From: Oscillospiraceae bacterium
GTDB lineage: Bacteria > Bacillota > Clostridia > Oscillospirales > Ruminococcaceae
Assembly (NCBI GenBank): GCA_009778115.1
Contig: WRKL01000001.1
Location: 1-64,000, forward strand
Direction of reading: 5' to 3'
Length of the DNA stretch: 64,000 bases
Under the pieces are notes generated by a model. It made no database searches and was not told the DNA's origin. It saw nothing but the letters and a program-made list of their open reading frames with translations. Numbering within the stretch: position 1 is the stretch's first letter; each line of letters starts with the position of its first letter. Position numbers and translations under genes: made by a program. Shown one piece after another: positions 60,293 to 60,950 of the stretch.

Positions 60293-60454
60293 TAGACCTC
60301 CTCGAAAACCACTTCGCGACGTATGAACGGAAGATTTCCCGTCACGCGGTGTTAATTTATCCTCAAATATCCATGATATTCTCGTCAAAATTGCCTTGTT
60401 TGACGAAAAATCATCTGTGTTCATACATCACGTTTTAATTTCCGAGGAGGTCTA
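60293..60454. mobile_element. Copy E of the MITE-like repeat (reverse orientation). It directly abuts an IS transposase fragment.
   Basis: It has the same TIRs (TAGACCTCCTCG / CGAGGAGGTCTA). Confidence 0.8.
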
Positions 60455-60455
60455 A

Positions 60456-60950
60456 TAAACGACGAAAGTCTCATGCAAAAACTTGAAGCAAAACGCGGAA
60501 ATGGCCGTGACGGCTATCCCGTTCGGGTGATGATGTTGAAACCGCCCCCCAGTGGCGTATTCTGTGACAGCAGCTAATGCTGATGAGAAAAAAGAGATGA
60601 TAAAGCTCTTGGAATCGCCATTATTGTCCAACGAAGAACGCCGTAAAATAGTGGAATATCTGCTGCTTGACCGTGGATATGACAGTACCGATATGATAAG
60701 ATCCGTGAAGAAGGCAGGGATTATCCCGGTGACAGTCTTAAATTCAAGCGGATTTACAAAGGCAGAACGGCAGTTGAGCGTCTGAACGGCAGGCTTGACA
60801 GGGATTATATGTTCGAGGATCACTGTATCCGGGGACTCAAAAAGATGACATTGATGCTCGGATTGTCGATGATAATTATGAACGAAATGGCTGTTGGGAA
60901 ACTTAAAAACGGCAAAGAGAAAATCAAGTCGCTGAAAAATACCGCTTGAC
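60456..60950 (+). pseudogene. 5'-truncated, frameshifted IS4/IS5-family (DDE_Tnp_1) transposase remnant
   Basis: Frame A reads ...LLLDRGYDSTDMIRSVKKAGIIPV. The frame switches near 60785. Frame B reads KRIYKGRTAVERLNGRLDRDYMFEDHCIRGLKKMTLMLGLSMIIMN... then a stop. These are typical C-terminal DDE transposase blocks. The antisense 217-aa ORF 60452-61105 is probably spurious. Confidence 0.6.

What the first reader, a model, noticed from the sequence alone, without database searches (positions are those of the whole stretch)
60293..60950. MITE copy E abuts a 5'-truncated IS4/IS5-like transposase remnant - a candidate parent IS
The element ends at ~60454. Transposase-homologous coding sequence begins at ~60456 with no intact N-terminus, and it carries a frameshift near 60785. 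Two explanations fit. The MITE may have inserted into and truncated the IS. Alternatively, this may be the surviving end of the autonomous IS from which the MITE family derives. IS5/ISL2-group elements also duplicate TA. Either way, the window contains no intact cognate transposase.
Basis: partly seen in the sequence, partly recalled or inferred. Interest (0 to 1): 0.55.

Follow-up and report, generated by a model that had tools for sequence, protein, structure and literature searches.

The report
MITE nested inside a decayed, unrelated IS
A small non-coding mobile element has jumped into the middle of an old, broken insertion sequence of a different family, so the neighbouring transposase fragment is a bystander and not the element's parent; this is ordinary genome debris.

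Summary
The MITE copy at 60294-60453 is real, and so are the transposase-like fragments beside it.

The transposase pseudogene is not 5'-truncated at the MITE. It continues upstream of it. The reading frame closes without a gap once the MITE and one 3-bp AAT copy are removed.

The pseudogene lies in a complete but decayed IS at 60051-61103. This IS has its own perfect terminal inverted repeats, GAATAATTTCGTTTGC. The same termini bound 46 intact 1.6-2.1-kb relatives (427-aa, IS1182-like transposase) in metagenomes.

The remnant has lost its ATG (now ATT), one base in a C-run, and two internal blocks of about 460 and 235 bp. The "frameshift near 60785" is really the second deletion junction at about 60730.

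The MITE's true cognates are about 0.9-kb IS5-family elements of ISL2-like type (HTH_Tnp_4 + DDE_Tnp_4, about 275 aa). Five such elements carry AGACCTCCTCGGAAA termini. The target duplication is 3 bp (ANT; AAT here), not TA. No cognate transposase is in the window. The host is an Oscillospiraceae MAG.

This is an ordinary nested insertion.

The parts
60051..61103 (+). Decayed IS1182-like insertion sequence (IS5 superfamily). It is 1053 bp including the nested MITE and 888 bp without it. Intact relatives are mostly 1600-1880 bp.
   Evidence: A perfect inverted repeat lies at 60048-60066 / 61088-61106. The core GAATAATTTCGTTTG lies at 60051 and 61103, the same termini as in 46 intact relatives. 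There are three collinear blocks to L134 at about 82% DNA identity.
60051..60066 (+). Left terminal inverted repeat of the IS remnant, GAATAATTTCGTTTGC.
   Evidence: The family consensus is GAATAATTTCGTTTG(T/C), with most core positions 85-100% conserved.
61088..61103 (-). Right terminal inverted repeat of the IS remnant. On the + strand it reads GCAAACGAAATTATTC.
60199..60293 (+). N-terminal part of the transposase pseudogene, upstream of the MITE (ISIIVSQINLFDYSEIEKLGDLERLDLAFDRI). The start codon ATG has mutated to ATT at 60199-60201.
   Evidence: Translation; DNA alignment to L134, where the same position is ATG; tblastn places residues 3-32 at 60208-60297.
60291..60293 (.). Left copy of the 3-bp target-site duplication, AAT.
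60294..60453 (+). MITE copy E (160 bp), with termini AGACCTCCTCG...CGAGGAGGTCT. It is non-coding and largely self-complementary.
   Evidence: The single-strand DNA fold has z = -5.5. Identity to the other three window copies is 95-97%.
60454..60456 (.). Right copy of the 3-bp target-site duplication, AAT.
60457..60531 (+). Continuation of the transposase N-terminal (DUF772) region, NDESLMQKLEAKRGNGRDGYPVRVM. It is in frame with 60199-60293 once the MITE and one AAT are removed.
60532..60548 (+). Junction of deletion 1. About 460 bp are missing (residues about 57-216 of the 427-aa protein). There is GTGATG microhomology at the junction, and 1 bp is lost in the adjoining C-run.
60549..60730 (+). 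Middle transposase block, containing the second catalytic D region (VAYSVTAANADEKK...LLLDRGYDS...GIIPV).
   Evidence: residues 217-277.
60729..60732 (+). Junction of deletion 2. About 235 bp are missing (residues about 278-355). The deletion is out of frame and is the real cause of the reported "frameshift".
60731..60949 (+). C-terminal transposase block with the catalytic E motif (DSLKFKRIYKGRTAVERLNGRLDRDYMFE...KSLKNTA, then the stop codon).
   Evidence: Pfam DDE_Tnp_1 at 31.4 bits; 92% identity to the composite over residues 356-427.

Best explanation
This is a nested insertion of two unrelated mobile elements.

1. An IS1182-like insertion sequence (IS5 superfamily) sits in the intergenic region between rplU and a DUF2971 gene. 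Its termini are GAATAATTTCGTTTGC. An intact copy is about 1.6-1.9 kb and encodes a transposase of about 425 aa with DUF772 + DDE_Tnp_1.
2. This IS decayed. The start codon became ATT, one base was lost, and two internal deletions of about 460 and 235 bp occurred, probably at short microhomologies.
3. At some point a 160-bp MITE inserted into the IS's N-terminal coding region at an AAT target and duplicated those 3 bp.
4. The MITE is the non-autonomous partner of a different element: a roughly 0.9-kb IS5-family, ISL2-like IS. That IS has termini AGACCTCCTCGGAAA and encodes a transposase of about 275 aa with HTH_Tnp_4 + DDE_Tnp_4, which must act in trans from elsewhere in the genome.

**Shown:** both sets of termini; collinearity of the pseudogene across the MITE; the deletions; the different transposase linked to each terminus type; the 3-bp ANT duplication.

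**Inferred:** trans-mobilisation by the ISL2-like transposase; the order of decay and MITE insertion; the microhomology mechanism of the deletions.
For: **The neighbour is a complete, separate IS**
- A perfect 19-bp inverted repeat brackets the pseudogene at 60048-60066 / 61088-61106.
- The metagenome scan returned 80 loci, nearly all matching the full-length 427-aa transposase. In 46 of them both ends were found, with termini GAATAATTTCGTTTG(T/C), mostly 1600-1880 bp apart, and no consistent target duplication.

**The MITE interrupts the pseudogene**
- The window aligns to the intact L134 without a gap from 60134 to 60531 once the MITE and 3 bp are removed. It then aligns in two further blocks separated by the deletions.
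- The GDLER...YPVR spacing is 27 aa in 75 of 76 homologs. The window matches this only if the MITE plus 3 bp are removed.

**The MITE belongs to a different IS family**
- Five elements of 901-979 bp (L082, L257, L259, L260, L262) carry AGACCTCCTCGGAAA termini (0-1 mismatch to the 11-nt AGACCTCCTCG core).
- They encode HTH_Tnp_4 + DDE_Tnp_4 proteins. NCBIfam NF033581 (IS5 family) scored 152.5 and 145.6 bits against a cut-off of 140 for the two proteins scanned, the fused L082 ORFs and P0110.
- The right-end 20 bp of MITE E are identical to the L082 IS end.

**The duplication is 3 bp**
- Of 25 genuine MITE or IS copies, 19 have identical 3-bp flanks: AAT, ATT or AGT. The middle base matches in 21 of 25, against 0.40 expected by chance (P = 7e-6).

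**Agreement with the literature**
- ISL2-group IS5 elements are described as 914-991 bp with 275-aa transposases, some with two ORFs joined by a -1 frameshift (PMC3196728).
- IS5 and PIF/Harbinger elements are stated to make 3-bp duplications (PMC4122938).
Against: - No ISL2-like IS was found in this genome itself.
- The MITE shares only about 17-20 terminal bases with the ISs that were found. Internal sequence is unrelated, so direct descent from any sampled IS is not shown.
- Three of the five full-length ISs have non-identical 3-bp flanks (ATT/AAT or AGT/AAT). I attribute this to chimeric assembly of a multicopy repeat in short metagenome contigs, but did not test that.
- Assignment to the ISL2 subgroup rests on size, architecture and duplication length, not on comparison with ISfinder reference sequences.
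Confidence: 0.92

Rival explanations
1. The transposase fragment is the remaining end of the autonomous IS from which the MITE family derives. On this view the MITE termini and the pseudogene belong to one element.
For: The two features are physically adjacent. Both transposase types fall in the broad IS5/DDE_Tnp_1 superfamily.
Against: - The pseudogene continues on both sides of the MITE in one frame.
- It has its own perfect termini at 60051 and 61103, shared with 46 intact relatives and unrelated to the MITE termini.
- Elements with the MITE termini encode a different protein of about 275 aa.
- Relatives of the pseudogene's IS make no target duplication, whereas the MITE makes a 3-bp one.
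Confidence: 0.02
2. The MITE insertion truncated the IS, deleting its 5' part. The sequence upstream of 60293 would then be unrelated host DNA.
Against: - Positions 60134-60293 align at 83% identity, ungapped, with the 5' region of the intact L134, including the promoter-proximal leader and codons 1-32.
- The left terminal repeat is present at 60051.
- The missing ATG is a point change to ATT.
Confidence: 0.02
3. The 888-bp IS remnant is itself a non-autonomous deletion derivative. It would have kept perfect termini and been mobilised in trans before the MITE landed in it, rather than decaying where it now sits.
For: Both 16-bp termini are identical to each other and to the family consensus, although the interior has lost about 45% of its length. 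Another internally deleted derivative of the family exists (P0029).
Against: No second copy with the same deletion junctions was found among the protein hits or the 80 loci. The window holds only one copy. This reading does not change the verdict on the finding.
Confidence: 0.15

Closest known systems
IS5 family, ISL2-group insertion sequences (for example ISCaa2, ISCaa3 and ISCaa6 of Amoebophilus asiaticus, PMC3196728) and MITEs derived from them
   Same: - The cognate ISs found here are 901-979 bp.
- They encode transposases of about 275-283 aa with HTH_Tnp_4 + DDE_Tnp_4.
- One copy (L082) has two ORFs joined by a -1 shift in an A-run.
- They have short terminal repeats of about 17-19 bp and a 3-bp duplication in AT-rich targets.
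- The MITE keeps only the termini and is mobilised in trans, like other bacterial MITEs.
   Different: - The specific terminus AGACCTCCTCGGAAA and the internal MITE sequence were not matched to any named ISfinder entry, because ISfinder is not available here.
- The published ISCaa elements were reported without direct repeats, whereas these show ANT duplications.
IS1182 family (NCBIfam NF033551; Pfam DUF772 + DDE_Tnp_1 / DDE_Tnp_1_6)
   Same: - The remnant's intact relatives have this family as their best NCBIfam hit.
- They have the DUF772 N-terminal domain plus a DDE_Tnp_1 catalytic domain, an IS length of 1.6-1.9 kb, one long ORF and terminal repeats of about 16 bp.
   Different: - Scores of 103-117 bits are far below the family cut-off of 270, so this is a divergent lineage and not a clear member.
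- No target duplication was seen in 47 copies.
Nested transposable-element insertions (a MITE inside an IS pseudogene)
   Same: A mobile element serves as a neutral landing site for another. Interrupted reading frames close when the insert and one duplication copy are removed.
   Different: Nothing unusual.

Membership tests
MITE (miniature inverted-repeat transposable element) | Short (under about 500 bp), non-coding, with terminal inverted repeats. | tested here: met
   The element is 160 bp with 11-12-nt perfect termini, extended to 36 nt at 78% complementarity. The element is only 160 bp; the two overlapping ORFs listed (53 and 67 aa) run beyond its ends.
MITE (miniature inverted-repeat transposable element) | Multiple dispersed copies flanked by target-site duplications. 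| tested here: met
   Four copies in the window are 92-97% identical, and each is flanked by AAT/AAT. Related copies of about 160 bp occur in mainly Ruminococcus and Oscillospiraceae MAGs.
MITE (miniature inverted-repeat transposable element) | Termini shared with an autonomous IS that encodes the transposase. | tested here: met
   Five ISs of 901-979 bp carry AGACCTCCTCGGAAA termini and an IS5-family transposase. They come from other organisms or metagenomes, not from this genome.
IS5 family (cognate IS of the MITE) | The transposase passes NCBIfam NF033581 (IS5 family) and has a DDE domain. | tested here: met
   The fused L082 ORFs score 152.5 bits and the intact P0110 scores 145.6 bits, against a cut-off of 140. 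Pfam DDE_Tnp_4 scores 90.9 bits and HTH_Tnp_4 46.1 bits.
IS5 family, ISL2 group (cognate IS of the MITE) | Length of about 0.8-1.1 kb, a transposase of about 275 aa, and a 2-3-bp duplication. | tested here: met
   Length is 901-979 bp, the proteins are 271-283 aa, and the duplication is 3 bp ANT. Published ISL2-group sizes are in PMC3196728.
IS5 family, ISL2 group (cognate IS of the MITE) | The transposase clusters with ISfinder ISL2-group reference sequences. | not testable with these tools
The subgroup call is therefore an inference.
IS1182 family (the IS remnant at 60051-61103) | The transposase passes NCBIfam NF033551. | tested here: not met
   It is the best hit, but scores of 102.9-116.6 bits fall well below the cut-off of 270 for intact relatives and for the composite protein.
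IS1182 family (the IS remnant at 60051-61103) | DUF772 N-terminal domain plus a DDE_Tnp_1-type catalytic domain, in an IS of about 1.3-2 kb with terminal repeats. | tested here: met
   Pfam DUF772 scores 39.6, DDE_Tnp_1 62.5 and DDE_Tnp_1_6 26.2 bits. Relatives are 1600-1880 bp with 15-16-bp termini.
   The IS termini are GAATAATTTCGTTTG and the MITE termini are AGACCTCCTCG. This holds in 46 intact copies and in the window copy.

The most novel reading that the evidence does not exclude
The 427-aa transposase family could be an undescribed IS lineage. It is IS1182-like but falls far below the family threshold, its termini are GAATAATTTCGTTTG, and it shows no target duplication in 47 copies. 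It would insert without duplicating its target, and it appears abundant in the same metagenomes that yield Oscillospiraceae MAGs. The window copy could then be a mobilisable deletion derivative of it.
Probability: 0.2. Interest if true: 0.3.

Novelty: new member of a known kind. Interest (0 to 1): 0.15.

Why it matters
The main value is for annotation.
- The MITE family's mobilising enzyme should be sought among ISL2-like IS5 transposases of about 275 aa, not among relatives of the adjacent pseudogene.
- The MITE's target duplication is ANT (3 bp), not TA.
- The transposase fragments at 60199-60949 should be annotated as one interrupted, internally deleted pseudogene inside a bounded IS at 60051-61103.

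The nested arrangement also gives a clean "empty-site" proof of the 3-bp duplication. Beyond that, this is routine mobile-element debris in an Oscillospiraceae genome.

Tried and rejected
- **Genome-collection scan for TAGACCTCCTCGRAA.** A neighbouring-ORF clustering found only conserved host genes containing the 15-mer. The scan still gave the L082 IS and about 20 MITE-like copies.
- **Viral-contig scans.** Neither the L082 transposase nor the terminus pattern gave anything relevant; all hits were single chance matches.
- **BLAST of MITE E against all fetched loci.** Only the terminal 20-49 bases match. No closer parent was found.
- **N-terminus with an ATG at 60172 plus a frameshift.** This was my first reconstruction (used) and it was wrong. 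Alignment to L134 shows no frameshift there; the true ATG has mutated to ATT at 60199.
- **TA as the duplication.** Rejected on the middle-base concordance and on the codon count at the reconstituted site.
- **Target duplications of 2-9 bp for the IS1182-like family.** None was found above chance.
- **Rfam search of 59300-61400.** No RNA family matched.
- **Exact-protein look-up of the DUF2971 gene, to read beyond the window.** The protein is not on record in that index.

Full report
**Observation**

TAGACCTCCTCG occurs seven times in the window against 0.07 expected. Two of the matches face each other at 60293-60304 and 60443-60454, and the arms extend to 36 nt at 78% complementarity.

Three further copies lie at 3437-3598 (opposite orientation), 29721-29863 (a 19-21-bp internal deletion) and about 21034-21195 (degenerate left end). 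The four copies are 92-97% identical. As single-stranded DNA the element folds far better than shuffled controls, with z = -5.5.

Directly downstream, three reading frames hold pieces of a DDE transposase. Pfam DDE_Tnp_1 scores 31.4 bits on the C-terminal piece.

**The transposase is interrupted, not truncated**

The frame that ends at the MITE's left edge reads ...QINLFDYSEIEKLGDLERLDLAFDRI. The frame that begins at its right edge reads NDESLMQKLEAKRGNGRDGYPVRVM. Homologs found in the protein search read straight through this region, for example GDLERLDLALEGINDEKLMRKLEARRGNGRDDYPVR in L130.

- Of 76 relatives in which the motifs were found, 75 have exactly 27 residues between GDLER and YPVR. 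The window also has 27 if the MITE and one 3-bp copy are removed, and 28 if only a TA is treated as duplicated.
- At the DNA level, window 60134-60531 minus the insert aligns without a single gap to the closest intact relative, L134, at 83% identity. The aligned stretch includes the untranslated leader.
- No ORF start was visible because the ATG of the relatives is ATT in the window, at 60199-60201.

**The pseudogene sits in its own bounded IS**

A perfect 19-nt inverted repeat lies at 60048-60066 and 61088-61106. A metagenome scan with a transposase alignment returned 80 loci, nearly all matching the full-length 427-aa protein.

- In 46 of them both ends could be located. The termini are GAATAATTTCGTTTG(T/C), and most core positions are 85-100% conserved.
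- Element lengths are 1600-1880 bp, with one of 2145 bp.
- No direct repeat of 2-9 bp appears above chance.
- Three copies of one IS (L150-L152) differ in sequence immediately outside GAAT...ATTC, which fixes the boundaries.

The window copy therefore spans 60051-61103. These termini bear no resemblance to TAGACCTCCTCG.

**Lesions in the remnant**

Against L134 (1610 bp) the window copy, 888 bp without the MITE, matches in three blocks:

| Window | L134 IS coordinates |
|---|---|
| 60134-60531 | 125-359 |
| 60549-60730 | 823-1004 |
| 60731-60952 | 1240-1461 |

- tblastn with a full-length protein shows that residues about 57-216 and 278-355 are missing.
- Junction 1 (60532-60548) lies in a GTGATG microhomology and is followed by a 1-bp loss in a C-run.
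- Junction 2 (about 60730) is out of frame.
- There is only one copy of this IS in the window.

**Family of the remnant**

Intact relatives and a composite protein have IS1182 (NF033551) as their best NCBIfam hit. They score only 103-117 bits against a cut-off of 270. Pfam finds DUF772, DDE_Tnp_1 and DDE_Tnp_1_6; DDE_Tnp_1_3 scores just below its cut-off. I call it IS1182-like within the IS5 superfamily. Strict membership is not met.

**The MITE's true relatives**

The genome-collection scan for the terminus was noisy. It did recover copies of about 85-190 bp with the same termini, mainly in Ruminococcus and Oscillospiraceae MAGs.

It also recovered a 901-bp element in Candidatus Improbicoccus devescovinae (L082, 6207-7107).
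- Its ends are AGACCTCTTCGGAAA and AGACCTCCTCGGAAA.
- It has two ORFs joined by a -1 shift in an A8 run.
- The fused protein passes NF033581, IS5 family (152.5 against 140), and has HTH_Tnp_4 + DDE_Tnp_4.
- An intact 283-aa copy from the same organism, P0110, also passes (145.6).

I fetched six contigs for relatives of this protein at 48-82% identity. Four further elements of 907-979 bp (L257, L259, L260, L262) have termini AGAC(C/T)TCCTCGGAAACT(A) at both ends. A more distant one (L261) has a related terminus, TAGACCTCTTGCGAAAT. No inverted repeat was found for L258 (P0112).

- The last 20 bases of MITE E are identical to the right end of the L082 IS. Internal sequences are unrelated.
- Several MAG contigs break about 60-130 bp inside such termini (L016, L025, L040, L043, L046, L050). 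One of them, L050, begins with the last 22 codons of the transposase. This is the pattern expected of collapsed multicopy ISs.
- The window holds no homolog of this transposase.
- The size, protein length and occasional -1 frameshift agree with published ISL2-group IS5 elements (PMC3196728).

**Target duplication**

Placing the element boundaries at AGACC...GGTCT gives identical 3-bp flanks in 19 of 25 genuine MITE or IS copies: AAT nine times, ATT eight times and AGT twice. The middle base agrees in 21 of 25 against 0.40 expected by chance (P = 7e-6). The outer bases are almost always A and T.

Together with the codon count at the reconstituted site, this shows a 3-bp ANT duplication and not TA. 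IS5 and PIF/Harbinger elements are reported to make 3-bp duplications (PMC4122938).

Three of the five full-length ISs have discordant flanks. They lie on short metagenome contigs and may be chimeric assemblies. I did not test this.

**Context**

- The IS lies between rplU (59427-59834, minus strand) and a DUF2971 gene (61288-63102).
- Exact matches to the Obg and DUF2971 proteins identify the source as an Oscillospiraceae MAG.
- No Rfam family matches in 59300-61400.

**Verdict**

A 160-bp MITE of an ISL2-like IS5 family inserted, with an AAT duplication, into the N-terminal coding region of an unrelated, decayed IS1182-like element. The parent-IS reading is refuted. The "inserted into the IS" reading stands, without truncation. 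The arrangement is ordinary, and its value is in correcting the annotation and pointing to the right transposase family.

Noticed in passing
L120-L199 (metagenome loci) and window 60051-61103: In 47 copies, the 427-aa IS1182-like family shows no target-site duplication of 2-9 bp above chance. It scores far below the NCBIfam IS1182 cut-off. It is abundant in metagenomes whose contig prefixes (Ga0099364, Ga0123353) also appear in the titles of Oscillospiraceae MAGs that carry the MITE-type terminus (L057, L100).
   Followed up: partly
L052 4818-7292 (Ruminococcus sp. MAG JAMPAO010000027): Two MITE copies in the same orientation lie 2.3 kb apart. Each has mismatched flanks (GAT/ACT and AAT/GAT), but the outer flanks of the pair are both GAT. 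This could reflect movement of the pair as a composite unit, or recombination between copies.
   Followed up: no
L001 1360-4400: In this metagenome contig the IS1182-like transposase gene loses homology at its C-terminus. It is followed by DUF6431, an rve/Mu-transposase-C protein and a TniB-like AAA protein. This looks like another transposon inserted into the IS.
   Followed up: no
L058 1314-1637 and L008 5800-6470: Two intermediate-size non-coding elements (324 bp and 671 bp) have the same AGACCTCCTCGGAAA-type termini and identical 3-bp flanks (AAT and ATT). The terminus family therefore includes non-autonomous elements of several sizes.
   Followed up: partly
L082 about 6650-6665: The IS copy in Ca. 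Improbicoccus devescovinae has its transposase split at a CCTAAAAAAAAC run, with the second ORF in the -1 frame. An intact single-ORF 283-aa version (P0110) exists in the same organism. The split may therefore be a mutation and not programmed frameshifting.
   Followed up: partly
window 63142-63507 and 63746-63821: A short ORF with an SNF2/helicase-like N-terminus (DEVGLGKT motif) stops after 121 aa, just downstream of the DUF2971 gene. It may be a truncated or frameshifted helicase gene. A tRNA-Lys(UUU) gene lies at 63746-63821 on the minus strand.
   Followed up: no
window 60048-60050 and 61104-61106: In the window copy the inverted repeat extends 3 nt beyond the family terminus (TTT on the left, AAA on the right). 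These bases vary in other copies, so the extension is probably flank sequence and not part of the IS.
   Followed up: partly
window 21034-21195: This MITE copy has a degenerate left terminus (AGGTCTCCTTG, 3 mismatches) but an intact right terminus and AAT flanks. It is probably no longer mobilisable.
   Followed up: no
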